A stretch of DNA of 64,000 bases from Trypanosoma brucei (taxonomy: Eukaryota), in contig CP000070.1 in assembly GCA_000002445.1 (NCBI GenBank), positions 1,344,001 to 1,408,000 of the forward strand. Direction: 5' to 3'. This document shows, in pieces, positions 27,856 through 64,000 of the stretch. How positions within the stretch are numbered: the stretch's first letter is position 1; every line of letters starts with the position of its first letter. The notes below the pieces were generated by a model. That model was not told where the DNA came from and did no database searches. It was given only the letters and a program-made list of their open reading frames with translations. Both the position numbers and the translations under genes were made by a program.

Positions 27856-28418
27856 TGCTTTTTTGGTATGTGTATATGTGTGTGCTTCTCATAGATATGA
27901 TTTGAGCGCGCGGAGTTAAGTAGTCATTATTATTGCTATTCCCACTACCTAGTGTGAAGCCACGGGGTTCTATTTTCCATACCTCCCGCCTCTTTTATGT
28001 CGGATGTTGCTATTGCCACCCGATAATATTCCTTTTTTGTTTTCCTTTGTTATTTTCTTCCTTGTCCGAACAACTGGCCGTTCCGCGCGTTTCTGGTTGT
28101 TATTCGCGTCGGTGAAACGTGATGGTCGCTTGGGGAGTGAAGCCAGCCATAACCGAAGGAGGGAATACCGTACGGAGTCGGCAGTGAAGAAGTGCCTGAG
28201 CTGCATCCACTGCCTCAAAGAAAGTGCGAAGCTTAAACTGAAAGAAAGTACGTTGGGGTGAGAAGTAAGCGACAAAAAGTTTTCCAGCAGCTAAAAAAAG
28301 TCGGCAGAACGAAAAGGAGTAAGGAGGTATTGGAAAATACAAAGAGAGCGTGAAGCCGAGGGCGAAGAAAAAACAACTAAAGAAGTCAGAACTACTAGGG
28401 GAAGGAGTGAAATCGGTA

Positions 28419-31115
28419 ATGAGCCTGGTACAGAACCAAGTTTCAGGCAACCCATATGGGAGACAGTCCTTTCTCGTAGTGTTCGACTTTGATCACACTG
28501 TTGTGGACTGCAACAGCGACGATGCGGTACCACAGTGTTTAGGTCGTGAAAAGTTCAGGGAGGAGCTTCTTCGGAGTGAAGAGGGGAAAATACAGTGGAC
28601 TAATGTGTGTGATGCCGTCGTGGCTCCCTTTACAAAGCAGCAACTCGAGGACGCCGTGATAGAGGGCATCGAAATGGACAAGGACATGCCCGATGTGTTC
28701 CGCTTTCTTGCGCAAGGACACGCAAGGGTGGTGGGTGGCGAGGGTGGTGGAAACTCCTTCCCCGATGTGGAAATTGCATTTGCGAGTGACGCGAATCATC
28801 TCTTCATTGAAGCCACCATTGACCACCATCTTTCTTTCGCACGGGAGTCCATCTCTCAGATACACAGTAACCCCTTTCATGAAGTAAATAACGGGGATGG
28901 TGAAGGCGATCGTAAGTGTCGTGTTACGTGGTATGAGCCCACGGGGCACGATTGTCGAAGCTGCGCTGACCGCGATCACCCAAACATGTGCAAAAGCCTC
29001 ATCATTGCTCGCTTACTTCACAGCACTCGACTTATTGACCCAACCGTCATTTTTGTTGGTGATGGTGAAAACGATTACTGTCCCGTGTTGAACGCACTTC
29101 GGCCAAGAGACTGCATACTGGCACGTCGTAATTTCTCCATCCACAAAGCCCTTGCAGACCCCAGCTACACCAGTGGGTGTTGCAGGGTTGGGCTGTGGGA
29201 GAATGCAAAGGAAATGCTGTCATGCTTGAAACAACTAATGTCTCCGGGGCTGCGGCTTCCAACACTCGTGCGATTCAAAGACGTAGGTCCCCACGAGTTT
29301 CGTGCGGTTACGTTATCAACTCGCATGCCGCAGGTGCTCAGTCGCACGCTTGCGGACAATGCGGCAGAGGTTAGTCCCGAAGGCCGGCGTCTGATGGACG
29401 TGCTGATCGAGGATACTAAGCAAAACGGGCCGGTGCCGTCGCTCCCTGGTCAGAGCGTGGTTTCCCCTTGGTTGCAGGCATACGCCTCGACGGTAGAGTT
29501 TGACCATGCGGCCCATCAGATTGGGGAGCACAGCAAAGCACCTGCCGTCCCCAGGTGGGGACAACTTCCTTGGTTGCAGGGAGAGATATATTTTTACAAC
29601 GTGTTTGCGCAGTATATGTTGCTGGGGAAGGCTAACCCCCCTAGCGTATCAGAGGACAAGAGTACCCTGATGCCAAACCTTGTGACACCTTATGCCACTT
29701 GCACTCCTTTAAAAGCCCAGGGGTCCGGTGCTTCCTCTGTCGCGGAGATACAAGCGAGCGGTTCCACCCCACTTCAGTTCTTTAACCCTGCCAGGCTTGC
29801 CTGGAACAGTAAACAGAACGGGGAGTTACTCAGTGTTGGAGACAGCGTGGTCCTACGCGACAAGTCGAAGAGTTATTACGAAATCATGGGTGGTGATTCA
29901 CTCGTCAAACGGCATGACCACTTCCAATCGTATCGTGATTTCTTTCTGCGAGAGAAGCGCGAGGTAATCCACAAATTCCTGCGTCCGAAAATATGTCCGA
30001 TGCTCGCTTGCATTCCATGGGAGACGAATGAGGAATTTATCACTGTACTCTTGCGCTGGATGCTATGGGGCAATGCCATTGACCTCTCTATGTTTACGTT
30101 GGAGGGGCTACAGGTGACATCACATATTGGCGAAGCGAAGGGTTCGGAGAAGTGGAGCAAAGTTGAAGAGTTGCGTGCAGCGGAGTCAACGGCAGCAAGG
30201 GGGCAGGATGAACGTATTGTGGGAAACCAACTCGAAGAGATTGCTAAGGTTGTGCGCCGAATCGTTCGAGACGAGCCCACAACAAGCGGTGGTACGACCA
30301 GAAGTCGCACCGTTAATATTGTGATGGACAACGTCGGAGTTGAATGTGTGGCTGACCTCATCTTTACTTTATGGCTTCTCAATCATCACCCATCTCTGCG
30401 TGTCGTGCTCCACGTAAAGAGCATTCCGTACTATGTGTCAGATGTAACACCACCAGATTTTGATTTTCTCCTGAACGAGTTGGAAGAGTGCTCAAAACAA
30501 GATGTTGATCTCACGAGAATTCTCATACCTTTTGTGAAGGCGCTTCGTGAGGGTTTCAGCAGCGGCAGAATTTGTATTGATGCCGATCCGTTTTGGACTC
30601 AACCTTGTGAGTACCGCGAAATGCCACCCCACGTGTGCAACTCATTTTTCTTTAGCCAGCGTGTATCGGCAAGCGAGGAGACTCAAGGAGAGTACCCATC
30701 ATCAAGTCGTGAACTGTTTCCTCGCAGGTTGTACGTGGGACATTCTGCTCTCGTCATATTTAAGGGTGATTTGAATTTCCGACGCCTTATTGGCGACCGA
30801 CACTGGGACAACCGATCATTCATGTCGACAATAAAGCCATGCGAGCGCACTTCTCCATCTGTTGCCTCAACTCTGCTTGCTGACACTCCGTGTAGTGGGG
30901 ACGAGAGCACGGCGGTGGCGCCGAGCTTTGAGAACATTGTGTCTGCCTTTTGGCCTGTGCTAACCGTTCCAGTGTGCGCGATACGCACCATAAAGAGTGA
31001 GCTCTGCGTGGGAGTACCGTTCCAGAAACAGGACAAACTTGACTCCAGTGACCCGAAGTGGAGAACGTCCGGCAGTTTTGGGGTTGTTTTAATTGCCACC
31101 GGAGAGAGTCACTGA
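28419..31115 (+). CDS. Bifunctional-looking phosphatase: N-terminal PHOSPHO1/PHOSPHO2-type HAD phosphatase domain fused to a C-terminal DUF89 (ARMT1/damage-control phosphatase-like) domain
   Basis: First ATG at 28419 (the ORF track start at 28350 is GTG). HAD motif I is near the N-terminus (FLVVFDFDHTVVDCNSDD). The Cys cluster HDCRSCADRDHPNMCK and motif IFVGDGENDYCPVLNALRPRDCILARR closely parallel human PHOSPHO2 (HSCNRCPKNLCK; IGDGGNDVCPV), recalled from memory. The C-terminal half carries DUF89 hallmarks: R(M/L)PQVL...; PWLQGEIYFYNVF (cf. PWL..ECY.YRR); and the metal-site motif VMDNVGVECVADLIFTLWLL (DNxGxE). Confidence 0.7.
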   Translation: MSLVQNQVSGNPYGRQSFLVVFDFDHTVVDCNSDDAVPQCLGREKFREELLRSEEGKIQWTNVCDAVVAPFTKQQLEDAVIEGIEMDKDMPDVFRFLAQGHARVVGGEGGGNSFPDVEIAFASDANHLFIEATIDHHLSFARESISQIHSNPFHEVNNGDGEGDRKCRVTWYEPTGHDCRSCADRDHPNMCKSLIIARLLHSTRLIDPTVIFVGDGENDYCPVLNALRPRDCILARRNFSIHKALADPSYTSGCCRVGLWENAKEMLSCLKQLMSPGLRLPTLVRFKDVGPHEFRAVTLSTRMPQVLSRTLADNAAEVSPEGRRLMDVLIEDTKQNGPVPSLPGQSVVSPWLQAYASTVEFDHAAHQIGEHSKAPAVPRWGQLPWLQGEIYFYNVFAQYMLLGKANPPSVSEDKSTLMPNLVTPYATCTPLKAQGSGASSVAEIQASGSTPLQFFNPARLAWNSKQNGELLSVGDSVVLRDKSKSYYEIMGGDSLVKRHDHFQSYRDFFLREKREVIHKFLRPKICPMLACIPWETNEEFITVLLRWMLWGNAIDLSMFTLEGLQVTSHIGEAKGSEKWSKVEELRAAESTAARGQDERIVGNQLEEIAKVVRRIVRDEPTTSGGTTRSRTVNIVMDNVGVECVADLIFTLWLLNHHPSLRVVLHVKSIPYYVSDVTPPDFDFLLNELEECSKQDVDLTRILIPFVKALREGFSSGRICIDADPFWTQPCEYREMPPHVCNSFFFSQRVSASEETQGEYPSSSRELFPRRLYVGHSALVIFKGDLNFRRLIGDRHWDNRSFMSTIKPCERTSPSVASTLLADTPCSGDESTAVAPSFENIVSAFWPVLTVPVCAIRTIKSELCVGVPFQKQDKLDSSDPKWRTSGSFGVVLIATGESH

Positions 31116-31915: not shown

Positions 31916-32248
31916 TATGAGGCGTTAAAGTACCAATATGAGGATACCACTGTCGCCCATTTTTTTTTCACATTAGTGTATTTGGTGTTCAGTGGCTCCT
32001 GCATACGTATCAGGTGCCAAAGGTTTGTATCGTGTGCTATTTCTCACATGTTGTTGTTATTGATACGTGTGAATCTTTATTTGATTTCCCATTTACCCTT
32101 TGATACCCTGCTGTCATTCTTTTTGTTTTTTTCTGTTTTGTCTTTTGTTTGGAAGGTTTAGCAGCCACATCGGGGGTCACAGACGCCGACAGAGGGAGCT
32201 AAGAGGCAATCCCTCGTGGACTCCTCAACGGTGTGCTGAGTGTGTAGT

Positions 32249-35200
32249 ATGACACAGCCCTCGGCAGATGAAATCTACGGTCGCCGTGCGAAAGTCAACT
32301 CTGTGATAAAGCATTCGCTGTGTTCCGGGGTCTGTGCAGTACCACAATGGATTGTTCTTTCCATGGCTGGCCTTCTCACGGGGGCACTTTTTTTTCTACC
32401 CTTTTCCACAGCCACACTTCACATTGTCTTTGTAGCCATGTCTATTGCTCTCGGTCTTCTGTTCGCGCTGTTCTCTTGGATACTGCAAAGGCACCTGTGC
32501 AAGCGGCCACCACGTGATAGCGGACTTATTAATCGGTCGGTGACTGAGGTTGAGGGTACTCAGCCCCGTCGTCTTTCAGGGGGATCAGAGGGAAGAGAGT
32601 TTAATGCCGCGAGGAGCGAGGGGGAATTAGAGGCGCACTGTTTTTTTGAAAGCGGTAGCCGTTGGTGTCTGGAAGCTCTGGCGATAGTGGAATTGCTTGT
32701 GCTGGGCGCTCTCGTGCTTCTTGCACCGCTCGTGGTCAGAATGGATGTGGAGGGAAAGTCTCTTGTTCCATCAGATGCGAGAGAGGACCCTAGTGAGCTG
32801 GCGTACCCCGTGGAAGCAGCATGGAAGGTGTTTCTCTTGCATCTATGGTTTACCTTCGCCGTTAGTATGAAGTGTGCAGCTTCATTTTCGGTGGGGTTGA
32901 TTCACTTCATTGTGCTCACGGCGTCGTTCAAAAAGCCTGGTACCATACCGGTCCTCCTCTTGGCGGCTTCCTTTATCATACCCGTTATCCTTTTTCTTGT
33001 TATTACGGCGAGGACCGCACTTCAACTGCGGAAATTACCAAAGCATACGCACCACGTAGGGTGTGACGACGTCGCAGGGAAGGAGTTGTCGCGAGGTGGC
33101 GATGAATTTAACCGATCATCTAATGCCACAACTGGCCTTTCTACAGGGGAGACAGAAACGTTGCCTTCTCAGTCTTCCTGTGGTATCTTTAGGCCACCCC
33201 CTGGACATCGCAGCGCAGAGTTTGGAGAGCCCGGTTCCAGCGGGGATTCTTCTCCGCGTCACTGCGAAGTGGTGGCTAAAGAGGAGTTGGGCCGACAAAA
33301 TCAACCCAAGTGGTCTCCATGTGGGTTACAGTGCAGTTGGAACATACCTCGAGGTCTATTGGATGACACTCGAATCCCCTTCGTGGCTCTAGATACTACC
33401 ACCGGTTGCATTGAGTGTGCAAGTGCGGGGTTTGCCGAGAATGTTGGTATGCCGGTAGCCCGATTGACTGGTCGAGAGTTTGGGGGCCTCTTAAGTGAGC
33501 TCCACGTGGAAAATGCGGCAACGGTGTTGGATGTTGTGCGCACCGTAGCAAGTTCTACCGTAAGCAAACCTCGCGCAATCCACACTGAGGGTAACGGGAA
33601 AGAAGTTTCAGGTGTACGGAGGACAGTGTTTGGAAAGTTTGGGATTAGGCCGCTGTTTTCAAAGCAGCGGCAGGTCGGGCCATTATCTGCACTGGTTGCT
33701 GATGCTGATAAGTCGTCAATGGAGATCGAAATGAACTTTCCACATATTGCGAAGGAAAGTAGTGGTCGCCGTGTCTTGGTGCGGGGATGCCGTTTCCAGG
33801 ACGAGATGGACACTCACAGCTCAAAATCATTAGCTGCTGTAGTTGATGAAGCAAAAACAAGGGGGACTGGCACGTCATCTTCTGGCATTGAGCGTGAACG
33901 CCCGATGGTATCTGAACCGAATAGTGTAACAGGTATTAAACCATCACATTTTTTTTCACTTTCACTAGATGTTTATTTATATCAACACCACGATACCTGC
34001 AACAGCAGGTATTTAGTTTTGCGGCAGCCGTCGTTGCATTATGCACTAGATTGTGTTCCACTGCCGTGTTTTCTCGTACACCCCCAAACGGGTCATGTGC
34101 TACACTGGAACGAAGCCGCAGAGCGAGAAACCGGGCTCTCAGCATACGACATGGTGGGTTGGCCGGTGTGTTTAACTTCTGTAGTGGACCCTACCGGTTC
34201 ACTGGGAGTTTTTAAAGATGCTCAGAAGAAACACTCGCTAATGCCGTTTAACTCTGCACCATCTGCTGTTCTTCATCCACCCTTGGCGAGTCCTCCTTTG
34301 TTAGTGAGTCTCCATCTTGTGGCTGGTGGTGGGGTTGAGGCGGAACAGGGACCACTGTTGGATCAAATTGATTGTCTTTGTTGGCCAGGTCGGCATCTGA
34401 GAGACGTAGGCGAATGCAGGGGTTATGCAGAAACGGATGGGTCAGTTTTGAAGGACACCAGCGCCTGTTTCTCCAGTGACCGTGACTCAGAAGAGGCTGG
34501 AGGGATGCTCCCTCCGTTGAACCCCGTTAGCGTGAATTTGGAACCTCTTGATGATTATATCTCTAGAAAAGCGCTGTTTTTCCCGCCGGCATGGATGCCG
34601 GAATCACTTACTGAAAGTAAAGCGAATACCGTGACGTGGGATGCACTTCACGTTCCTTTACTGTTTTTAATACATGGCGAAGCGCCGGGGGTGCGTGAGT
34701 GTTCGCCACTTGCGGATTGTTGTCAACCAAAGAAACAACGGAAGAACAACGGAGAGGTTGAGGGACTTTCTCAATCTTTTGTTGATATTATTGAGGAGTT
34801 CAAGGAGTCTCTGAGTTGTGCCCTCGTGAAGGAGTGTGGCATCTCCTCCCTCCCATTAAGGGATGGCAAGGAAACACTACCAAATCCCGATATAACGCAA
34901 TACTTGGGCGAACTACGGGAACTTTTCACGTGTTTGGCACAGAAGGTTGATTCCTTTAGGGAGTGTCGTGGGGTTCCTATGTCCGGCAGGGGGGATATTT
35001 GTGGGGACTTTTCGGACGCAGAGGATGGTGATACCAGTTCCGCCGTCAGAGGCGGACGCCGACCGGTTACTGCTTTTGGTTCGTCACTTGACTTGGGAAG
35101 GGGAGTCACTACCGCTCGCTACGTTGGTGATGGCAGTCGCGGAATAAAGGAGGGGAATGATATATTTGGCGAGGAGGGCGCACGAAAAGGGATCAAGGAG

Positions 35201-37285
35201 CAACAGCAAAGGACCCGTTACGACGCGCCTGCTGCTGGGGTGTTGGCGTTAGCACACAAGAATACGGCAAGTCATCCAGTTTCGTCATTTGCCGTGTCGC
35301 AAGACGCCCTCGTGACACCCCCGGCGCGTGGTGCTGCTCTCGTGGACCTCGGCAATCTGACTCGTCCTTCAGGGGAGGAGCGGTTTGTGGAGAGAGGACC
35401 TGGTTCTGGTGCAAGTAAACGTTGTGACACACACCGAATTCCACCCATGCAACCTCACAGTAAGCCGCTTGGTTATTCGAACCCTGCGGCAGAAATCCCT
35501 TCGAGGAGTGTAACTCCCACGTCGCCACTGAGGTTGGACCACTGTGAATCTCCCGGGGACCTGCCCGTGTGGGCGATGTTGAAGAGTAATGACGAAGCAA
35601 CCGTTCCATCATGTTTTATCCGAGTGCCGTTTGGAGAGGTGTTTCGCTTTGGCCGCAGCAGTAAGTGCCACGCAACGACATCTGATGTCTTTGTGAGTAG
35701 TGTCCAGTTCACAGTCAGTCGCTGGGTGCCCGCGCAGTTGTGTGCCATTCGTTCCTCTACACCACCGCATCAAGATAACGGCAGTTCCTGCGGCAGCTGC
35801 TCGCCAACGCCGTCTGGTTACGGACCATGCAACTCATCGGCCCTGGCGGACTGGAGGGTTGAGCTGTGTGACTGCAGTATTAATGGTACATACGTGAACG
35901 TCAAACGAATCGGCAAGGGGAGGACGTGTACTTTGCGAAACAACGATCTTATTACATTTCAGTTGAGAGCCCGACGGTTCTTTTTAGGGTTTAGGTTTGT
36001 GTTAACGGATGAGCGAGGCGTACCGCTGAAGGAGTGTTCCTCACCCACGTGCAGCAGCTTCCGTGCTTCCGGGATCTCTGGACGCGGTACACCACGCCTT
36101 TGGCAGCGCACCTTATCGGGGTCCGGTAGTACTTTTGCGTTAAACGCCAGTCAAACGGAATCGGCTAAGCTCAACTGTAGTGATAGTGCTTCCCAGGCAG
36201 TTCGTAGTGCTAGTGGCGTTCGGCACGGCGCCAGAACTCCCAATGCAAGGAGGATTCATACCAGCCAACGTGGTAGTGGTCGCCACCAACGCGGGACGAT
36301 AGAGTGGAAGATAGGTGAGGAAATGCTGGGTAAGGGTGGGAATGCTGAGGTATATCTTGGGATGAATCTCACGAACGGGAAACTCATTGCAGTGAAACGA
36401 GTTCCACTCCCCAAAGAGGCTGGAGGAGGCGGAAATGGAAAGGGATTGCTAAAGCGGTATATGAGCCTGCAGGAAGAAATAAAGGTCCTTTCTAAGGCTG
36501 TGCACCAAAATATTGTTCAGTACTACGGTTCCTCTCAGAATAAGGACTACTTCAACATACTTCTTGAGTTTGTGCCTGGTGGGTCGCTGCGTCATCTATT
36601 GGAAAACTTTGGCGCTCTTAGTCCGGGCGTTATATGCTCTTATCTGGCGCAAACACTCGAGGGTCTGCGCTATTTGCATGAAAATGACATTGTGCACTCT
36701 GACGTTAAAGCAGCTAACATACTTGTCACCGATAAGGGTCGAGTAAAACTTTCTGATTTCGGCACGGCCAAACATCTTCTCTGGCAGCAAGGTCAGTCGA
36801 TTGACCTGGCGAACATTTCAGGTGCCGCAGAAAGGACTGCGGATGATGCCGCGTGCTCCACGCACCATGTAGCCGGTACACTCCGTTGGATGGCTCCAGA
36901 GTTAATTAGGGCTTCTATCGGTCCGACGAAGGCGAGTGACATTTGGTCGGTGGGTTGTGCATTGATTGAGATGCTCTCTGGTGATGCACCATGGAACGAG
37001 TATGAAATCGAGAGCGAGGAGGAAATAATCAATCTTCTCAAGTACACCACGGAACCACCAGACGTACCAGAGTGCCAGGTCTTGCCTGAGTTAACACTCA
37101 TTGCAAAAAAATGTCTTGCGCTCTCCCCCCGTGATCGACCGACGTGTGAAGAGTTACTGCAACTTGTCGAGGAAGCAAGAGAGAAACTTGGGCTTCAAGA
37201 AGACGAAACTCAGTCACGGTGTGACGATTCGACATCATTGCGTCTTTCCTCTGTTTTGGGTAACGCTGCTGTGGAAGGTAATTGA
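32249..37285 (+). CDS. Membrane-associated STE11/MEKK-like serine/threonine protein kinase with an FHA domain
   Basis: First ATG at 32249. The N-terminal ~270 aa contain at least five strongly hydrophobic predicted TM helices. An FHA domain lies around aa ~1090-1210 (FRFGRSSKCHATTSDVFVSSVQFTV...CDCSINGTYVNVKRIGKGRTCTLRNNDLITF). The C-terminal kinase domain has all the catalytic motifs: LGKGGNAEVY, AVKRV, HENDIVHSDVKAANILV, SDFGTA, WMAPE and DIWSVGCALIEMLSG. Confidence 0.85.
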   Translation: MTQPSADEIYGRRAKVNSVIKHSLCSGVCAVPQWIVLSMAGLLTGALFFLPFSTATLHIVFVAMSIALGLLFALFSWILQRHLCKRPPRDSGLINRSVTEVEGTQPRRLSGGSEGREFNAARSEGELEAHCFFESGSRWCLEALAIVELLVLGALVLLAPLVVRMDVEGKSLVPSDAREDPSELAYPVEAAWKVFLLHLWFTFAVSMKCAASFSVGLIHFIVLTASFKKPGTIPVLLLAASFIIPVILFLVITARTALQLRKLPKHTHHVGCDDVAGKELSRGGDEFNRSSNATTGLSTGETETLPSQSSCGIFRPPPGHRSAEFGEPGSSGDSSPRHCEVVAKEELGRQNQPKWSPCGLQCSWNIPRGLLDDTRIPFVALDTTTGCIECASAGFAENVGMPVARLTGREFGGLLSELHVENAATVLDVVRTVASSTVSKPRAIHTEGNGKEVSGVRRTVFGKFGIRPLFSKQRQVGPLSALVADADKSSMEIEMNFPHIAKESSGRRVLVRGCRFQDEMDTHSSKSLAAVVDEAKTRGTGTSSSGIERERPMVSEPNSVTGIKPSHFFSLSLDVYLYQHHDTCNSRYLVLRQPSLHYALDCVPLPCFLVHPQTGHVLHWNEAAERETGLSAYDMVGWPVCLTSVVDPTGSLGVFKDAQKKHSLMPFNSAPSAVLHPPLASPPLLVSLHLVAGGGVEAEQGPLLDQIDCLCWPGRHLRDVGECRGYAETDGSVLKDTSACFSSDRDSEEAGGMLPPLNPVSVNLEPLDDYISRKALFFPPAWMPESLTESKANTVTWDALHVPLLFLIHGEAPGVRECSPLADCCQPKKQRKNNGEVEGLSQSFVDIIEEFKESLSCALVKECGISSLPLRDGKETLPNPDITQYLGELRELFTCLAQKVDSFRECRGVPMSGRGDICGDFSDAEDGDTSSAVRGGRRPVTAFGSSLDLGRGVTTARYVGDGSRGIKEGNDIFGEEGARKGIKEQQQRTRYDAPAAGVLALAHKNTASHPVSSFAVSQDALVTPPARGAALVDLGNLTRPSGEERFVERGPGSGASKRCDTHRIPPMQPHSKPLGYSNPAAEIPSRSVTPTSPLRLDHCESPGDLPVWAMLKSNDEATVPSCFIRVPFGEVFRFGRSSKCHATTSDVFVSSVQFTVSRWVPAQLCAIRSSTPPHQDNGSSCGSCSPTPSGYGPCNSSALADWRVELCDCSINGTYVNVKRIGKGRTCTLRNNDLITFQLRARRFFLGFRFVLTDERGVPLKECSSPTCSSFRASGISGRGTPRLWQRTLSGSGSTFALNASQTESAKLNCSDSASQAVRSASGVRHGARTPNARRIHTSQRGSGRHQRGTIEWKIGEEMLGKGGNAEVYLGMNLTNGKLIAVKRVPLPKEAGGGGNGKGLLKRYMSLQEEIKVLSKAVHQNIVQYYGSSQNKDYFNILLEFVPGGSLRHLLENFGALSPGVICSYLAQTLEGLRYLHENDIVHSDVKAANILVTDKGRVKLSDFGTAKHLLWQQGQSIDLANISGAAERTADDAACSTHHVAGTLRWMAPELIRASIGPTKASDIWSVGCALIEMLSGDAPWNEYEIESEEEIINLLKYTTEPPDVPECQVLPELTLIAKKCLALSPRDRPTCEELLQLVEEAREKLGLQEDETQSRCDDSTSLRLSSVLGNAAVEGN

Positions 37286-37591: not shown

Positions 37592-37850
37592 GTGGCTGTG
37601 GAGGACAAACTCTGGACTCTGAATTGCTTTCATTTTACTCCTGCTTTTATTTACCACCGTCGTTTGCAATTTCATCTGTATTTCTCTATTCGAAGTTTCT
37701 TAATTGCAAACAGACGTGTGTGTGCGCGTCCACATGTGCCTGTGGCTCACTTTCTTCCATTTCGTGCACATGTTTCGAACCCGGTGGCAATACATCTTAG
37801 GTTTCGTCACTGTGACACCTTTGTGCTTTTTTGTTTTGTTCTTTGTCAAA

Positions 37851-37922
37851 CTTTTTTCACCTTGTGCATACTTATGCCTTCATTTCTCCTTTTTCTCTCT
37901 TTTTCGTTTCGATCTTTTATGA
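37851..37922 (+). promoter_or_regulatory. Pyrimidine-rich tract upstream of lanosterol synthase: candidate trans-splicing signal
   Basis: cttttttcaccttgtgcatacttatgccttcatttctcctttttctctctttttcgtttcgatcttttatg, ~250 nt upstream of ATG 38167. Confidence 0.35.
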
Positions 37923-38166
37923 TTTAACCGTTAGCTGTTTTTTTTTCACGAGCAGCAGTTGCCGTATCATCCTCCGTTGTTTTGAGTGTTCAGCGTATTT
38001 ATTTTTTTTTTCTGCCGTAATAGAAGGCTTAAGGGGTAGCCAAGACGTTTCATTTTTTACTTTTTATTTTTCCTCGCTAAAAGACCAAGAGAAAAGGAAA
38101 AAGGAACAAGAGAAGGAAAACCCGTCACTCCAGGTTGTTTGTTTATCTTTTCACTCGTTACTAAAA

Positions 38167-40887
38167 ATGATGCTCTATCAGAGAAGGGGCAGGGGCGAGA
38201 TGCACAGACCCGGCATTCGAACCATTGTTGGAAGTGGTAACTCTGCACCCAGTTCACTATGCGCACCGTTCCCGTTTGATAGTGTGATCCCGCCGCCACC
38301 AAGAGGCTTGTTAGAGCGCTTTCTGCGGCGACTGACCTCAACCATCTCATGGGTGGTTTCGTTTCTTCTCGTCGTTTGCTCGATTCCCTTTCTGCTTCTC
38401 ATCCACGCGCTACTGGTCTACTGTGATGGATATAATCGTGAAGTTGTCGCGCGACATCGTAGAAAATGGCTACACCAAACGGTTCCACACGTAAGACCAG
38501 TGAGGGTGGCGCCGTCTCCCAACTTTCCCCTTGAGGGTTGGCATATGCGCTGCGAGGACGGCCGTCAGCGCTGGCACTACGGTCGGCTGCTCAATGTGGA
38601 GGAGGGGAATGAACTCGGGAAGGCCCAGGCTGAGGGATGTCCGTACACCCCTTATGGTGAAGCTGGAAATGCTAATGATGACTTTGAGGATACAGGCGCA
38701 ACAAGGACTGGCCCACGAGGTGGTCCGGACATGCGTGCAGTGAAGGAAGAGCGATGCCGCTTTGTTGAGCGATATCAATTGGGTCTCACAGGCACGGCTC
38801 ATGTAAAGCCTAGGGGATCTGTGGAAGAGGCCATGCGAGCAGGCGCTGAGTTCTTATTGCGCCTACAGCACCCATATTCCGGTCATTGGCCAAATGACTA
38901 TAGCGGGCCCCTATTTCTTACCCCCGGTGTTATCTTTGTTAGGTACATTGTGGCTCGTGGCAACATACGCAATATGTTCCCACCCCATGCAGATCACCAG
39001 CACGAGGGAGACGAGCCGTGCCTCTGTGGAGAAGCAGAGCGACTAGAACTTATACGTTACATACGAAACTATATGAACGAGGACGGTGGCTTTGGTCAAC
39101 ATACTGAGGGACACAGCACCATGCTTGGGACTGTCCTCAATTACGTTGCACTACGACTTATGGGGGTTTCAGATGATGACAGCGACGCGGCTCGCGCTCG
39201 TCAGTGGATCCGTGGTGAAGGCGGTGCTGTTTCCATTCCCACGTGGGGTAAGGTGTGGTTATGTGTCCTTGGTCTGTACGATTGGGACGGCGTTAACCCC
39301 ATTCCACCGGAGTTGTCATTGCTGCCCAACTGGATACCGTTTTCACCGAGCCGCCTGTGGTGTCACAGTCGTGTCGTTTCCATAGCCTTCTCGTACTTGT
39401 ATGGTTTGCGATGGAGGCAGCCCGATAATCTACTTCTTCAATGCCTGCGGTACGAGATTTACCTTGAGCCATATGGAAACATTAAGTGGGCTAAGCATCG
39501 AAGCAACATTTGTGCCAAGGACTGCTATACACCTCTTTCTTCCGTGTACAAAGTTTTCGCCGCCGTTATGAGTTTGTATGAGAAGCGGCCCATCAAATTT
39601 CTTCGCAGGCGGGCGCTGGAGGTAGCATGGACCCATATTGCTTACGATGATGAAAGCACACATTTCATATGCCTTGGGCCGGTGAACAAGGCGTTCGACA
39701 TGCTCATAACGTGGATACGTGAGGGAGAAACTAGTGGAAGGTACCTAAACCACCTTAATCGTCTCGATGATTATTTCTTCATGGGACCTGAAGGGCTTAG
39801 GATGAGTGGTTATAACGGTTCACAATTATGGGACACGTCGTTCGCTGTACAGGCCCTCTGCGCCTGCAACATGGAGTTGTTGTACCCTGAGGAGATGGCC
39901 CTTGCTCATCACTACGTAGATGTTGCGCAGGTGCAGGAGAATCCGGTGGCAGCGACACAGTTTTACCGCCATCGGACGAAAGGTGCGTGGAACTTCAGTA
40001 CACGCCCGCAAGCGTGGCAGGTGTCAGATTGCACAGCCGAAGGGCTTCGTGTATTGCTGCTGCTCCGTCACAAGCCATTTCCTCACCAACGCATTTATGA
40101 CGCTGTGGATCAGATTTTGTCCCTGAGGAATCGAGGCGGCGGGTGGGCTTCTTATGAGCCAACTTGCGCACCCCACTACGTAGAACTTCTCAACTGCTCG
40201 GATGTGTTCAAGGATGTCATGACTGACTACGTCTACACGGAGTGCACAAGCAGTTGTGTGCACACACTCTCACTTTTCCGAGAGCACTTTCCCGACTACC
40301 GGCGGGAGGATGTAGATAGGGCCATTCGCGATGGTGTGAAGTGCATGCTGGCGAACCAGCGGACGGATGGTTCGTATTACGGAAGTTGGGCCGTATGCTT
40401 TACATATGCTGCTTGGCTCTGCGCTAGTGCGCTTCGCATATCTGGTGAGATTTACGGCATGGAGGGAGATCCGACGTGTGTGCGCCTCGTTAACTTTTTG
40501 TTGTCACACCAGAATACGGACGGCGGTTGGGGGGAGGATGTGAGCGCGTGCGCTCGTGGTGTGTGGGTTGATAATCCAAGTGGAAGTCAAGTCGTCAACA
40601 CTGCGTGGGCGGTCATGGCTATCATGGCTGCCTCTGGCGAAGCGAGCTCAACCGAACTGCGCCGCCAGCTTCGTATTCTAAAGGCTGTAAGTGCAGGTAT
40701 TCACTTTATTGTGTCGCGCCAGCTATCAACAGGTGACTGGGCACAAGAGCGAATTAGCGGTGTGTTTAACGGTAACAACCCGATTCACTACCCAGGATAT
40801 AAAAATACCATGCCAGTGTGGGCACTGGGGGTGTACAGGCGCTGGAGTAAAACATACGGTCAACATTTTCCCCGATCGATGGATTAG
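38167..40887 (+). CDS. Lanosterol synthase (2,3-oxidosqualene cyclase, OSC/ERG7 family)
   Basis: First ATG at 38167 inside the longer ORF 37831..40887, giving 906 aa. Class II terpene cyclase signatures: GHWPNDYSGPLFLTPGVI, the catalytic-acid motif VSDCTAEGLRV, multiple QW repeats, and GSWAVCFTYAAWL. The N-terminal ~100 aa extension contains a hydrophobic segment. Confidence 0.9.
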   Translation: MMLYQRRGRGEMHRPGIRTIVGSGNSAPSSLCAPFPFDSVIPPPPRGLLERFLRRLTSTISWVVSFLLVVCSIPFLLLIHALLVYCDGYNREVVARHRRKWLHQTVPHVRPVRVAPSPNFPLEGWHMRCEDGRQRWHYGRLLNVEEGNELGKAQAEGCPYTPYGEAGNANDDFEDTGATRTGPRGGPDMRAVKEERCRFVERYQLGLTGTAHVKPRGSVEEAMRAGAEFLLRLQHPYSGHWPNDYSGPLFLTPGVIFVRYIVARGNIRNMFPPHADHQHEGDEPCLCGEAERLELIRYIRNYMNEDGGFGQHTEGHSTMLGTVLNYVALRLMGVSDDDSDAARARQWIRGEGGAVSIPTWGKVWLCVLGLYDWDGVNPIPPELSLLPNWIPFSPSRLWCHSRVVSIAFSYLYGLRWRQPDNLLLQCLRYEIYLEPYGNIKWAKHRSNICAKDCYTPLSSVYKVFAAVMSLYEKRPIKFLRRRALEVAWTHIAYDDESTHFICLGPVNKAFDMLITWIREGETSGRYLNHLNRLDDYFFMGPEGLRMSGYNGSQLWDTSFAVQALCACNMELLYPEEMALAHHYVDVAQVQENPVAATQFYRHRTKGAWNFSTRPQAWQVSDCTAEGLRVLLLLRHKPFPHQRIYDAVDQILSLRNRGGGWASYEPTCAPHYVELLNCSDVFKDVMTDYVYTECTSSCVHTLSLFREHFPDYRREDVDRAIRDGVKCMLANQRTDGSYYGSWAVCFTYAAWLCASALRISGEIYGMEGDPTCVRLVNFLLSHQNTDGGWGEDVSACARGVWVDNPSGSQVVNTAWAVMAIMAASGEASSTELRRQLRILKAVSAGIHFIVSRQLSTGDWAQERISGVFNGNNPIHYPGYKNTMPVWALGVYRRWSKTYGQHFPRSMD

Positions 40888-61030: not shown

Positions 61031-62630
61031 GAAGGACGGTTTTACTGCGGGAATCCTTGTGATTGCACACTAAATGATTGACTGTTGCCACAACCCGGAA
61101 ACTGATGTGTGAGTGGCGAGTGTTAGGGATGACTACACCAATCTGGAAGTGGTTCTTTTCCCTTTCTTTGGTTTTGTATTTGTGAGTGTGCTCGATTGCT
61201 GAGGCTTGGGTTAGGAGGAGGATTGTCCTTTGCCAGCTGAATTCTTCATTTTCTCCATTTATTTAGGTCTTCCTTATCCTCCCTTTAAAAAAGGAACATA
61301 ATTTATGTATCTCTTAACGCTTTTTCAGCGGCGGAATGGATGAAGTGCGGAGAATTCCGTGAATTTCTTTGGTTCCTTACCCCCACCCCTAATTCCTCGG
61401 AAACGGTGGTGCTGGGGTGCGTTTTTTCTCCCAATTCAAGTGCCTGTCATGGATGAGACGTGCTGTGTGAAAGTGCAAAACCAACGTAGATTGTGCATGC
61501 GTTTGTCTGCTCGTATAAATGCAAAGCAATTAGCTCGAAAGAGGAAGCTTATCTCTTTGTTGGCTTCGTTTAATAGCATGGCTCTTTGTGATGCAAACTA
61601 GTCTTGGTGAAAGGCTGTTTTTTCAAGGGCTTCTGGTAGCTGATAGAAAAAAGGACTTTTTTGCTCCCATTTGCTTCGCACTACAAATGCGTCAGGACCT
61701 CCCCAAGAAGTTACGGCCTGCGTGGGTGTACGCCTTGGGCTTACGCGCATGGTGCCAGTGCTCGAGTGGAGCGGGTGATTTTAACAGGGGAAGGGACAAG
61801 GAGGGAGTGATGACACACACGCACATGATTATGACATTGGCAAGACAACTATTTTCTTTTTCTTTTTGCCTTTATTTATTACTGCGTCGCGACACCTCTC
61901 TCTTTTCCCCGTGCCCCCCTTCCCTTCCAGGGTGATCTTTCCCTGATATTTCGCTATCGCATACGATTGAGTTGTGCTTCATATCTTTTTGTTTGTTATA
62001 ATGTCTACATTTGTGAGTGGTCATTGCCATTGTTTGTTCACTGTTCAGTTCATTTCCCCCCTTTTCTTCCGCGAGCTATTTATTCCTTTATCATTTTCAG
62101 TTCTTTTTGTTGTTATTGCGAGCTCCCCTCCCCACACTTTCTTTTTTTATTATCTGTTTCCGGAGCCCTGTGCTGCGCTGTACGTGCCAGTCCCATACGG
62201 GGTGGCGTCACCATGAAAGAGGCTCGTTGGATGGATTGCTTGCGCCGCGTCGGCGTTTACGCGCAGTTACGGTGAACGAAAAAGAGTGATACGAATAATG
62301 AAAAGGAATGAAGGAAGAACCACCAGGAGTGCAGTTTGTACAAGTGTTGAATTCGGGCCTTTTTTCTTTCCTTATCCTTTCCCTCTTTGGCACACATGAT
62401 AGGGGACCTACTGTACATAAATCTGTGTATATGTGTGCGCGTGAGAACTGCCAAGATGCAAAAAGATGGGTTTCGCAACCTTTTGCCATGTGCCACACAT
62501 GCTCTTCTCATCAAACCCCTTTTTCATTGCTTAAGGGAGTGTTGTGTGAACAATATACAGACAGCTGTAGATTGATTACATTTTTAATACGGCTGAGCAG
62601 CGGCAGGAGACGTAATATACAAACTCCACC

Positions 62631-63990
62631 ATGAATGTCGATGGTACTGTCCAACAAGCCCGTGTGGGTGTTGTTGTACACCGAGCGGAGTCTCTTGTTG
62701 GACTGAGCGCGAGTGGGACGTCGAATCCCTTTGTTTCCGTTTCGGTTGGCGCGACAGTCCTCAGTACTCCTGTTGTGCAGAATAGCACAAACCCCACATT
62801 CGAGGCTGCTTTTAACTTCCCCGAATGCCCTATTCCAACTATTCTGACACTTCGTGTATTTCACAAGGAGGCCGGTGGGGTAGAGAGTCCACTCGGCAGT
62901 GCAACGCTTACGCTGTTTTCGCCGTCCGCGATGACTCGCCGACAAGTACAACTGGGACATGGTGGTAGCGTTGTTTTGTCTCAGAAGGCCCGTGACGGAT
63001 GCGGATCGCTAGACATTTCTTATGAGGTAGTGGCGCCAACGTCCTATAAAGCAACTGCATCGGAACAACGAAAATCTGTTGACGACGATCTACCTTCGTT
63101 TTTGAGGGATGACGCGGGGGCGGAAACCCTAACTTCAGCATTTACGGCATTCTCCCAACCTCCACCACCACCAGCTGCTGCAATACCGAAACCACCAGAA
63201 TTTGGAGCTGTTCCTCCACCACCACCAGCTGCTGCAATACCGAAACCACCAGAATTTGGAGCTGTTCCACCACCACCACCAGCTGCTTCAATACCGAAAC
63301 CACCAGAATTTGGAGCTGTTCCACCACCACCACCAGCTGCTTCAATACCGAAACCACCAGAATTTGGAGCTGTTCCACCACCACCACCAGCTGCTGCAAT
63401 ACCGAAGCCACCAGAATTTGGAGCTGTACCACCACCACCACCAGTTGCTGCAATACCGAAGCCACCAGAATTTGGAGCTGTTCCACCACCACCACCAGCT
63501 GCTTCAATACCGAAACCACCAGAATTTGGAGCTGTTCCACCACCACCACCAGCTGCTGCAATACCGAAGCCACCAGAATTTGGAGCTGTTCCACCACCAC
63601 CACCACCAACTGCTGCAATACCGAAGCCACCAGAATTTGGAACTGTTGCCCCACCCGTCCCCGTCGTGGTACCCTCCACCTCTGGACAATCATTTATTGC
63701 GAGTGCGGCTTTTGCAAATGAGGACTCTTCTGAGACGTCACCACCACCTTCGTCTTCAACTATGCCGGACACTGGGGGCACCTCTCACTCATCTCACCGC
63801 GGTTATTCATCTGCATCGTCCCCCAACAGCACCAATCATACGCAGCTGCAGAGGCAGCAAATGGCATCGGCATCGTCAACGGGAGCGACATCGACATCTC
63901 TTCATACTTCATCGAATCATTCAAGCACCGCACCCCCGCCACCACTTCAGGCACAAAAGGAACCGCCACTTCATGGAGTAGATAAGACTT
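62631..63990 (+). CDS. C2-domain protein with an array of ~9 tandem 18-aa polyproline repeats (FH1-like), 3'-partial: continues beyond the window
   Basis: ATG at 62631. This ORF is not in the supplied track because it lacks a stop within the window. The N-terminus translates to a C2 domain: MNVDGTVQQARVGVVVHRAESLVGLSASGTSNPFVSVSVGATVLSTPVVQNSTNPTFEAAFNFPEC.... From ~63159 the frame encodes (PPPPPAAAIPKPPEFGAV)n, then a Ser/Thr-rich region, and stays open to nt 63990. Confidence 0.6.
63159..63647 (+). repeat. Near-perfect 54-nt tandem repeat (~9 copies) encoding the PPPPPAA(A/S)IPKPPEFGAV motif
   Basis: Direct reading: the unit cctccaccaccaccagctgct(g/t)caataccgaa(a/g)ccaccagaatttggagctgtt repeats with only occasional third-position or Ala/Ser changes. 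It creates spurious ORFs on both strands (63044..63781 -, 63142..63693 -, 63202..63981 +). Confidence 0.9.
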
Positions 63991-64000
63991 CGCGGGCTCC

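What the first reader, a model, noticed from the sequence alone, without database searches (positions are those of the whole stretch)
28419..31115. Single polypeptide fusing a PHOSPHO2-type HAD phosphatase to a DUF89/ARMT1-type metal-dependent phosphatase
The N-terminal ~320 aa carry a PHOSPHO1/2-type HAD module: the FDFDHTVVD motif I, the Cys cluster, and GDGENDYCPV. The C-terminal ~550 aa carry DUF89 hallmarks: RMPQVL, PWLQGEIYFYNVF, and the DNVGVE metal site. DUF89 proteins are 'damage-control' phosphatases known as stand-alone proteins or fused to pantothenate kinase (PANK4). A fusion of two different phosphatase folds would be unusual. It could indicate a bifunctional phosphatase, or one catalytic and one substrate-sensing domain. 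Notably, the DxDxT motif has H at the cap position (DFDHT).
Basis: partly seen in the sequence, partly recalled or inferred. Interest (0 to 1): 0.6.

Follow-up and report, generated by a model that had tools for sequence, protein, structure and literature searches.

The report
Kinetoplastid two-phosphatase fusion protein (HAD–DUF89)
This Trypanosoma brucei gene really does encode one protein that joins two unrelated phosphatase domains, both apparently active; the fusion is conserved across kinetoplastid parasites, is already listed in databases, but has never been studied.

Summary

It is not an assembly artefact. More than 35 collinear orthologues carry the same fusion, in all named trypanosomatid genera recovered and in a bodonid-like metagenomic kinetoplastid.

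All catalytic residues of both active sites are conserved in every orthologue but one. The 19-aa linker is as conserved as the domains, and pTM is 0.88/0.86 in two models, which suggests a rigid two-domain enzyme.

The best reading is a bifunctional small-molecule phosphohydrolase with two aspartyl-phosphate active sites; its substrates are unknown.

The "H at the cap position" remark is unfounded: H26 is variable and is not a cap or catalytic residue.

Product names in several genomes already record both domains, so the architecture is catalogued. I found no paper that describes or tests it. Interest is moderate.

The parts
28419..31115 (+). Complete coding sequence (898 aa + stop) of the HAD-DUF89 fusion protein; identical to T. 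brucei TREU927 XP_846144.1 / Q57ZG8
28470..29237 (+). N-terminal PHOSPHO1/2-type HAD phosphatase domain (PF06888), aa 18-273
28482..28499 (+). HAD motif I, FDFDHT: D23 predicted nucleophile, D25 acid/base, T27
   Evidence: D23, D25 and T27 are invariant in 20 of 20 sequences in A1. H26 is variable.
28779..28796 (+). HAD motif II, FASDAN (S123)
   Evidence: S123 is invariant in A1.
28944..28994 (+). H-x-C-x-x-C...N-M-C-K cysteine cluster, ending in the motif III lysine K192
   Evidence: H177, C179, C182, C191 and K192 are also invariant in stand-alone PHOSPHO-like homologues and conserved in orthologues.
29058..29075 (+). HAD motif IV, GDGEND (D215, D219; Mg2+ ligands by family analogy)
   Evidence: G214, D215, G216, N218 and D219 are invariant.
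29238..29294 (+). Short conserved inter-domain linker, aa 274-292 (contains RLPTLVRF)
   Evidence: Mean identity to orthologues is 56%, at least as high as either domain. R279, L280, P281 and D288 are invariant.
29295..31112 (+). C-terminal DUF89 / ARMT1-like subfamily III phosphatase domain, aa 293-898, with variable insertions at aa ~401-496, 561-626, 746-775 and 801-845
30063..30089 (+). DUF89 lid motif LWGNAIDLS; D555 is equivalent to Duf8901 Asp195
   Evidence: Alignment; residue role from PMC9062747; invariant.
30324..30344 (+). DUF89 motif MDNVGVE; D637 is the predicted aspartyl-phosphate nucleophile (= Duf8901 Asp248) and N638 = Asn249
   Evidence: the same column is D->N in the 8tkz mutant chain. 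Invariant.
30417..30443 (+). KSIPYYVSD; D675 is the metal-site Asp (= Duf8901 Asp286)
30762..30785 (+). KGDLNFRR; D784 = Duf8901 Asp363, which positions the water or leaving group
30984..30995 (+). RTIK; K859 = Duf8901 Lys401, a phosphate contact

Best explanation
The gene encodes a soluble, bifunctional small-molecule phosphohydrolase found in kinetoplastids. Two catalytically competent phosphatase domains of unrelated fold are held in a fixed arrangement by a short conserved linker.

The N-terminal domain is a PHOSPHO1/2-type HAD enzyme. It should work by the standard HAD mechanism. D23 attacks the phosphoester to form an aspartyl-phosphate. D25 acts as the acid/base. S123 and K192 bind the phosphate. 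D215 and D219 bind Mg2+.

The C-terminal domain is a subfamily III DUF89 enzyme. It should work as shown for fission yeast Duf8901. D637 forms an aspartyl-phosphate. N638 and K859 contact the phosphate. D675 helps to hold the divalent metal, probably Co2+, Ni2+ or Mn2+. D555, on a mobile lid, and D784 position the leaving group and the water.

Shown here: the architecture, the folds (on predicted models), conservation of all catalytic residues, and the phyletic distribution.

Inferred: that both sites are active; that the protein is a housekeeping, damage-control or phosphate-recycling phosphatase; and that the two sites act on related or successive phosphometabolites. Characterised relatives use the following substrates. 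The HAD family uses phosphoethanolamine/phosphocholine, PLP and PPi. DUF89 subfamily III uses fructose-1-phosphate, pNPP and PPi.
For: Architecture and identity:
- One continuous ORF that matches RefSeq exactly.
- Both Pfam domains are well above gathering score.

Distribution:
- All 33 homologues from the word-indexed search carry both domains.
- An exhaustive phmmer search of 1.84 billion representatives gives 23 proteins below 1e-30. Of the 22 apart from the query's own cluster, 18 have both domains on record or on rescanning. Four shorter ones are single-domain or were not scanned, and look like fragments.
- Scores then drop to single-domain DUF89 (about 1e-26) and single-domain PHOSPHO-like proteins (about 1e-19).
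- One distant orthologue lies on an intronless same-strand gene array. Its mS29 is 60-62% identical to trypanosomatid mS29.

Active sites:
- All 10 HAD and 8 DUF89 catalytic or motif residues checked are identical in 20 of 20 sequences (A1) and in 18 of 19 sequences (A2). This holds down to about 27% overall identity.
- Residue roles are taken from PMC9062747.

Rigid arrangement:
- The linker is 56% conserved, against 48-50% for the domains.
- pTM is 0.88 for T. brucei and 0.86 for orthologue P0030.

Expression:
- The L. infantum protein with the same two-domain product name was detected among soluble proteins by mass spectrometry.

Functional hints from relatives:
- Both families have members with PPi hydrolysis or links to phosphate homeostasis. 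S. pombe Duf89 hydrolyses PPi and its deletion derepresses pho1.
- Plant PECP1 and PS2 are induced by phosphate starvation, and PPsPase1/PECP2 is linked to PPi homeostasis.
Against: - No enzymatic, genetic or localisation data exist for this protein or any orthologue in the literature I could search.
- Substrates cannot be read from the sequence.
- I had no model coordinates or PAE. The fixed inter-domain geometry therefore rests only on pTM and linker conservation. Nothing is known about the distance between the two active sites or their relative orientation.
- One metagenomic lineage (P0189/P0049) has lost the HAD nucleophile, motif IV Asp215 and the Cys cluster, yet keeps the DUF89 site. 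HAD catalysis is therefore dispensable in at least one lineage.
- The protein scores below the NCBIfam TIGR01489 trusted cut-off (66.4 against 81.55).
Confidence: 0.6

Rival explanations
1. Sequential or channelled action. The two active sites cooperate on one doubly phosphorylated or pyrophosphorylated metabolite, such as a sugar bisphosphate, a diphospho-vitamin or a pyrophosphorylated compound. Each domain removes one phosphate. The fusion exists to couple the two steps. This is a more specific version of the best explanation.
For: - The conserved linker and high pTM suggest a fixed geometry.
- The fusion has been kept intact over the whole depth of sampled kinetoplastids.
- S. pombe Duf89 has a 10-fold lower Km for PPi than for pNPP. 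The authors speculate that it acts on pyrophosphorylated metabolites.
- Members of the plant PF06888 family are linked to PPi homeostasis.
Against: - There is no substrate evidence at all.
- There are no coordinates to show that the active sites face each other.
- One lineage has a dead HAD site but keeps DUF89, so the DUF89 step can stand alone.
Confidence: 0.15
2. One catalytic domain plus one non-catalytic domain. Only the DUF89 domain, or only the HAD domain, hydrolyses substrate. The other domain binds a ligand or metal and regulates, targets or stabilises the enzyme. PANK4 is the precedent, with a pseudokinase half and an active DUF89 half.
For: - PANK4 is a precedent for an inactive partner fused to an active DUF89.
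- The metagenomic orthologue P0189 has FGVDDT and VGAGASD in place of FDFDHT and VGDGEND, and lacks the Cys cluster, while its DUF89 site is intact.
- The HAD domain carries extra invariant cysteines (C31, C254, C255) that stand-alone homologues lack.
Against: - In T. brucei and in all other orthologues examined (about 35), every canonical catalytic residue of both domains is invariant, despite overall identity falling to 27-40%.
- That pattern is what purifying selection on catalysis produces. It is not what a binding-only module produces.
Confidence: 0.2
3. Artefact. The two halves are separate genes joined by a frameshift, a mis-assembly or a wrong gene model.
For: None found.
Against: - There is no stop codon or frame change across 2,697 nt.
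- The sequence is identical to the reference-genome protein, and near-identical proteins exist in T. b. gambiense, T. equiperdum and independent Logan assemblies.
- More than 35 collinear orthologues exist, from independent genomes and metagenomes.
- The junction region is among the best-conserved parts of the protein.
Confidence: 0.01
4. The C-terminal domain is a protein carboxyl methyltransferase, as once proposed for ARMT1 and YMR027W, rather than a phosphatase.
For: Some PDB entries of YMR027W are still titled 'Protein-glutamate O-methyltransferase'.
Against: - Later work assigns phosphatase activity to this family. Covalent Asp-BeF3 and Asp-AlF4 structures and mutagenesis support this.
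- Human ARMT1 has been re-described as a damage-control phosphatase.
- All of the phosphatase catalytic residues are invariant here.
Confidence: 0.03

Closest known systems
DUF89 subfamily III damage-control phosphatases (S. pombe Duf89/Duf8901, S. cerevisiae YMR027W, human ARMT1/C6orf211)
   Same: - Sequence motifs match.
- All six residues shown to be essential or catalytic in Duf8901 have counterparts. D195, D248, N249, D286, D363 and K401 correspond to D555, D637, N638, D675, D784 and K859.
   Different: - The known enzymes are stand-alone proteins of about 440 aa.
- Here the domain is about 600 aa with four variable insertions. It is fused at its N-terminus to a HAD phosphatase through a conserved linker.
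- Sequence identity is only about 25-27%.
- Metal and substrate preferences are untested.
PHOSPHO1 / PHOSPHO2 / plant PECP1-PS2 (PPsPase1) family of HAD phosphatases (Pfam PF06888; HAD-IB, MtnX-like superfamily TIGR01489)
   Same: - The match covers the full length of the Pfam model.
- Motifs I-IV and the HxCxxC...NMCK cysteine motif are shared with stand-alone homologues of about 250 aa.
- The fold resembles MtnX.
   Different: - The known members are stand-alone proteins of about 250-270 aa.
- Here the domain has additional invariant cysteines (C31, C254, C255) and a C-terminal DUF89 domain.
- Identity to the nearest stand-alone homologues, which are from choanoflagellates, is about 30%.
- The score is below the TIGR01489 trusted cut-off.
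PanK-DUF89 fusions (human PANK4, Arabidopsis PANK2)
   Same: A DUF89 phosphatase sits at the C-terminus of a two-domain fusion protein. This is the only DUF89 fusion type described in the literature I could search.
   Different: - The partner there is a pantothenate kinase or pseudokinase, and the DUF89 domain belongs to subfamily II.
- Here the partner is a second phosphatase and the DUF89 domain belongs to subfamily III.
- No PanK domain is detected.

Membership tests
PF06888 PHOSPHO1/2-type HAD phosphatases | Match to the family HMM above the curated gathering score, over the whole model | tested here: met
   120.9 bits against GA 27; protein aa 18-273 to profile 1-233 of 234
PF06888 PHOSPHO1/2-type HAD phosphatases | HAD motifs I (DxDxT), II (S/T), III (K) and IV (GDGxxD) | tested here: met
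   D23/D25/T27, S123, K192 and G214-D219 are all invariant across orthologues and are shared with stand-alone homologues
PF06888 PHOSPHO1/2-type HAD phosphatases | Family-specific H-x-C-x-x-C...N-M-C-K cysteine motif | tested here: met
   H177, C179, C182, N189, C191 and K192 are invariant in the alignment with stand-alone homologues
PF06888 PHOSPHO1/2-type HAD phosphatases | HAD Rossmannoid core with an inserted cap (HAD-IB type fold) | tested here: met
   [not shown]
PF06888 PHOSPHO1/2-type HAD phosphatases | Mg2+-dependent hydrolysis of phosphoethanolamine/phosphocholine, PLP or PPi | not testable with these tools
   Needs an enzyme assay
NCBIfam TIGR01489 MtnX-like HAD-IB subfamily | Score above the curated cut-off | tested here: not met
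   66.4 bits against a cut-off of 81.55. The protein is related to this subfamily but is not a trusted member.
DUF89 (PF01937) subfamily III damage-control phosphatases | Match to the family HMM above the gathering score | tested here: met
   [not shown]
DUF89 (PF01937) subfamily III damage-control phosphatases | Catalytic set: Asp nucleophile-Asn (DN), metal Asp (VSD), GDxN Asp, RTxK Lys and lid Asp (WGNxxDLS) | tested here: met
   D637, N638, D675, D784, K859 and D555 align to Duf8901 D248, N249, D286, D363, K401 and D195. They are invariant in all orthologues.
DUF89 (PF01937) subfamily III damage-control phosphatases | Closer in structure to subfamily III than to subfamilies I and II | tested here: met
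   [not shown]
DUF89 (PF01937) subfamily III damage-control phosphatases | Stand-alone single-domain protein of about 440 aa | tested here: not met
   898 aa, with an N-terminal HAD domain and about 200 aa of insertions
DUF89 (PF01937) subfamily III damage-control phosphatases | Metal-dependent (Co2+/Ni2+) phosphatase or pyrophosphatase activity | not testable with these tools
   Needs an enzyme assay
PanK-DUF89 (PANK4-type) fusions | N-terminal type II pantothenate kinase domain | tested here: not met
   Pfam detects only PF06888, PF01937 and a weak generic HAD match. There is no PanK/Fumble domain.

The most novel reading that the evidence does not exclude
The two aspartyl-phosphate active sites are held in a fixed geometry to strip both phosphates from a single doubly phosphorylated or pyrophosphorylated metabolite. 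The protein would then be a kinetoplastid-specific coupled 'double phosphatase' tied to phosphate/PPi homeostasis or to damage control. If so, the identity of the HAD partner would act as a Rosetta-stone clue to the physiological substrates of DUF89 subfamily III enzymes, which remain unknown.
Probability: 0.15. Interest if true: 0.7.

Novelty: new variant of a known kind. Interest (0 to 1): 0.4.

Why it matters
The in vivo substrates of DUF89 subfamily III enzymes (yeast YMR027W, human ARMT1, S. pombe Duf89) are still uncertain, and the authors of the S. pombe study say so explicitly. For subfamily II, it was the fusion to pantothenate kinase that led to the function.

A stable, ancient fusion of a subfamily III DUF89 to a PHOSPHO1/2-type HAD phosphatase is a comparable clue. 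It suggests that the two families act on related or successive phosphometabolites, possibly in phosphate or PPi economy.

The fused form was found only in kinetoplastids, or in metagenomic contigs that look kinetoplastid-like. It is expressed as a soluble protein in Leishmania. It is therefore also a parasite-specific enzyme architecture that could be tested genetically.

The value should not be overstated. The domain pair is already recorded in genome annotations, both folds and mechanisms are well known, and nothing here shows a new chemistry.

Tried and rejected
- Frameshift or assembly artefact: rejected.
- 'H at the cap position' as a notable feature: rejected. The position is variable in orthologues and in stand-alone homologues.
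- Profile search with an alignment of distant orthologues (A2), to reach named non-trypanosomatid homologues: it returned the same 33 proteins.
- Foldseek against afdb50, to obtain organism names for two-domain matches: the library was unavailable.
- Reading Huang et al. 2016 (PMC7001580 / PMID 27322068), to see whether a HAD-DUF89 fusion was noted: the paper is not held.
- Literature searches for DUF89, ARMT1, PF06888, protein accessions, and PHOSPHO1 with Trypanosoma or Leishmania: the only result was a table row in a Leishmania thermal-proteome study.
- PDB sequence search with the HAD half alone: no solved relative by sequence.
- Synteny between the metagenomic contigs L001 and L003 and the T. 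brucei window: none beyond the gene itself.
- Taxon assignment of the P0045 contig through its nucleotide cyclase: inconclusive.
- Neighbouring genes in the window give no functional clue. One flank has no Pfam hit and the other is an FHA-kinase. This is expected for kinetoplastid polycistrons.
Full report
**1. The observation**

The region 28350..31115 on the + strand is one open reading frame with no interruption. Its first ATG is at 28419, which gives an 898-aa product ending at the stop codon at 31113-31115. The translation is found residue for residue in the public protein collection as T. brucei brucei TREU927 XP_846144.1 / AAZ12585.1 / UniProt Q57ZG8, "hypothetical protein, conserved". 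Proteins at 90% identity or more occur in T. b. gambiense, T. equiperdum and several independent Logan assemblies.

The window is therefore T. brucei chromosomal DNA. All but one of its ORFs of at least 250 aa lie on the + strand, as expected for a kinetoplastid polycistronic unit.

**2. Domain content**

Pfam hmmscan gives two hits:
- PF06888 (Put_Phosphatase, the PHOSPHO1/2 family): aa 18-273, covering profile positions 1-233 of 234; E=7.5e-35, 120.9 bits against a gathering score of 27.
- PF01937 (ARMT1-like/DUF89): aa 505-873; E=1.3e-41, 143.2 bits against a gathering score of 25.

NCBIfam places the N-terminal half in the MtnX-like HAD-IB superfamily (TIGR01489), but below its trusted cut-off: 66.4 against 81.55 bits.

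The Pfam DUF89 alignment starts late only because of insertions. A phmmer search against PDB sequences aligns aa 378-399 (PRWGQLPWLQGEIYFYNVF) and aa 497-560 to the N-terminal helices of S. pombe Duf89/Duf8901. In the orthologue alignment, the DUF89 N-terminal motif EFRxVTLxxRxPxVL begins at aa 293.

The layout is therefore:
- HAD domain, aa 18-273;
- a 19-aa linker, aa 274-292;
- DUF89 domain, aa 293-898.

The DUF89 part is about 160 aa longer than the stand-alone enzymes because of four poorly conserved insertions, at aa ~401-496, 561-626, 746-775 and 801-845. These show 17-31% mean identity among orthologues, against 46-76% for the core segments.

**3. Structure**

The C-terminal domain is therefore a subfamily III DUF89.

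A second model, of the 841-aa orthologue P0030, gives pLDDT 80.7 and pTM 0.86. A pTM this high for a two-domain protein, together with a linker that is at least as conserved as the domains (56% against 48-50%), suggests a fixed inter-domain geometry. I had no PAE or coordinates, so this remains an inference.

**4. Active sites**

In a 20-sequence alignment spanning Trypanosoma, Leishmania, Leptomonas, Novymonas, Phytomonas and unnamed metagenomic relatives (A1), the following residues are invariant.

HAD domain:
- D23, D25 and T27 (motif I);
- S123 (motif II);
- K192 (motif III, within NMCK);
- G214, D215, G216, N218 and D219 (motif IV).

DUF89 domain:
- D555 (WGNxxDLS lid);
- D637 and N638 (DNxGxE);
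- D675 (VSD);
- D784 (KGDLN);
- K859 (RTxK).

The PDB alignments map these DUF89 residues onto Duf8901 as follows: D555 = Asp195, D637 = Asp248, N638 = Asn249, D675 = Asp286, D784 = Asp363 and K859 = Lys401. The D248N mutant chain 8tkz differs from wild type at exactly the column of D637. Sanchez, Jacewicz and Shuman showed that Asp248 is the nucleophile that forms a covalent aspartyl-phosphate, and that the other residues are essential or catalytic (PMC9062747).

A wider alignment reaching about 27% identity (A2) shows the same residues in 18 of 19 sequences.

The N-terminal domain aligns end to end with stand-alone PHOSPHO-like proteins of about 250 aa. It shares their HxCxxC...NMCK cysteine motif, so the "Cys cluster" is a family hallmark. 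C31, C254 and C255 are additional cysteines conserved only in the fused proteins.

It is H, C, D, Q, K or R in orthologues and Q, W, F or H in stand-alone homologues. It is neither a cap residue nor conserved.

**5. Distribution**

All 33 homologues found by the word-indexed search carry both Pfam domains. The named ones are all Trypanosomatidae:
- Trypanosoma (T. grayi, T. conorhini, T. vivax, T. cruzi, T. rangeli);
- Leishmania;
- Porcisia;
- Leptomonas;
- Lotmaria;
- Novymonas;
- Phytomonas.

An exhaustive phmmer search of 1.84 billion cluster representatives finds 23 proteins below 1e-30. Every long one I rescanned has both domains. Scores then fall abruptly to single-domain proteins: DUF89 proteins of about 430 aa (Salpingoeca rosetta, a zoopagomycete fungus) at about 1e-26, and PHOSPHO-like proteins of about 250 aa (choanoflagellates) at about 1e-19.

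The contig of a distant orthologue (P0054, about 28% identity) is an intronless, same-strand, tightly packed gene array. Its mitoribosomal mS29 is 60-62% identical to trypanosomatid mS29 and 52-54% identical to Prokinetoplastina transcripts. The source organism is therefore a kinetoplastid outside the named trypanosomatids, most probably a bodonid.

Two further contigs, L004 and L005, have the same gene-array look. The taxon of L005 could not be settled. I found no case outside kinetoplastid-like sequences.

**6. What is already known**

Several genome annotations already name both domains:
- [quoted passage not shown] (T. equiperdum, T. vivax);
- "putative Phosphatase DUF89" (Novymonas);
- [quoted passage not shown] (Lotmaria);

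Other annotations name only one half, for example "Phosphoethanolamine/phosphocholine phosphatase" in T. grayi. The architecture is therefore catalogued.

In the searchable literature, DUF89 is described as stand-alone or fused to pantothenate kinase. I found no paper that mentions, discusses or tests the HAD-DUF89 fusion. The founding DUF89 paper (Huang et al. 2016) was not available to me, so I cannot exclude a passing mention there.

The only experimental trace is a thermal proteome profiling table. In it, the L. infantum protein is among the soluble proteins detected, and its melting temperature rises by 5.68 degrees with 100 uM Sb(III) (PMC10931519).

**7. Mechanism**

The best-supported reading (confidence 0.6) is a bifunctional phosphohydrolase with two independent, catalytically competent active sites. 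Both are expected to use a covalent aspartyl-phosphate intermediate: D23 in the HAD domain and D637 in the DUF89 domain.

What is shown: the architecture, the folds (on predicted models), residue conservation and phyletic spread. What is inferred: activity, metal use and the nature of the substrates.

Characterised relatives suggest candidate substrates:
- PHOSPHO1 uses phosphoethanolamine and phosphocholine. PHOSPHO2 is its characterised paralogue; from my own knowledge it acts on pyridoxal phosphate.
- Plant PECP1 and PS2 are induced by phosphate starvation and dephosphorylate the same lipid head-group precursors. PPsPase1/PECP2 is linked to PPi homeostasis.
- YMR027W and human ARMT1 prefer fructose-1-phosphate.
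- S. pombe Duf89/Duf8901 and human DUF89 hydrolyse pNPP and PPi with Co2+ or Ni2+. Deletion of S. pombe duf89 derepresses the phosphate-regulated gene pho1.

Both parental families thus touch phosphate and PPi economy and phosphometabolite clearance. That makes a housekeeping, damage-control or phosphate-recycling role the natural guess.

A more specific version is that the two sites act in sequence on one doubly phosphorylated or pyrophosphorylated metabolite. This is attractive given the fixed geometry, but it has no direct support (0.15).

The alternative, that one domain is merely regulatory (0.2), has a precedent in PANK4. It also has one natural example here: the metagenomic orthologue P0189 has FGVDDT and VGAGASD in place of motifs I and IV and has lost the Cys cluster, while its DUF89 site is intact. 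For T. brucei and about 35 other orthologues, however, the invariance of every catalytic residue in both domains argues against it.

**8. Verdict**

- It is wrong about the H26 detail, and it somewhat overstates how unknown the fusion is.
- This is a new, uncharacterised architectural variant built from two well-known phosphatase kinds. It is conserved across kinetoplastids and already visible in database annotations.
- Interest is moderate (0.4). Its main value is as a Rosetta-stone clue to DUF89 subfamily III function and as a parasite-lineage-specific enzyme. No new chemistry or new fold is implied.

Noticed in passing
Protein P0189 (812 aa) / P0049 (782 aa), ENA metagenome; no window coordinates: This orthologue of the fusion has a degenerate HAD domain. 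Motif I is FGVDDT (nucleophile Asp replaced by Gly), motif IV is VGAGASD (D215 replaced by Ala), and the HxCxxC...NMCK cysteine cluster is lost. All DUF89 catalytic residues are kept. It is a natural 'pseudo-HAD + active DUF89' lineage.
   Followed up: partly
Leishmania infantum LINF_060011800 / A4HSV3 (named orthologue); corresponds to window 28419-31115: In a thermal proteome profiling study, the protein was detected among soluble proteins and was stabilised by +5.68 degrees by 100 uM Sb(III) (PMC10931519 Table 2). Sb(III) is thiophilic, and the HAD domain carries a conserved cysteine cluster (C31, C179, C182, C191, C221, C254, C255). The connection is my inference and is untested.
   Followed up: no
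window 32240-37285 (+): The downstream gene encodes a 1681-aa protein with an FHA domain (aa ~1205-1240) followed by a C-terminal protein kinase domain (aa 1361-1641).
   Followed up: no
window 37831-40887 (+): This ORF has squalene-hopene cyclase N- and C-terminal domains, so it is a terpene cyclase of the oxidosqualene/lanosterol synthase type.
   Followed up: no
window 62001-64000: GC skew is positive in every 2-kb bin from 1 to 62000, then turns negative (-0.146) in the last bin. All but one of the ORFs of at least 250 aa in the window are on the + strand. This may be the approach to a strand-switch region or simply a local compositional change.
   Followed up: no
L003 (JGI 3300066132 contig, 48 kb), L004, L005: The metagenomic contigs that carry distant orthologues are intronless, same-strand gene arrays with spacers of about 100-300 bp, which looks like kinetoplastid polycistrons. 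The mS29 on L003 is 60-62% identical to trypanosomatid mS29. The nucleotide cyclase on L005 has its catalytic domain near the N-terminus and is not specifically trypanosome-like, so its taxon is unresolved.
   Followed up: partly
Protein cluster of P0043: This 90%-identity cluster of a 1061-aa fusion orthologue also lists a 57-aa 'chromosomal replication initiator protein' and a 41-aa peptide as members. This looks like a clustering artefact of the collection.
   Followed up: no
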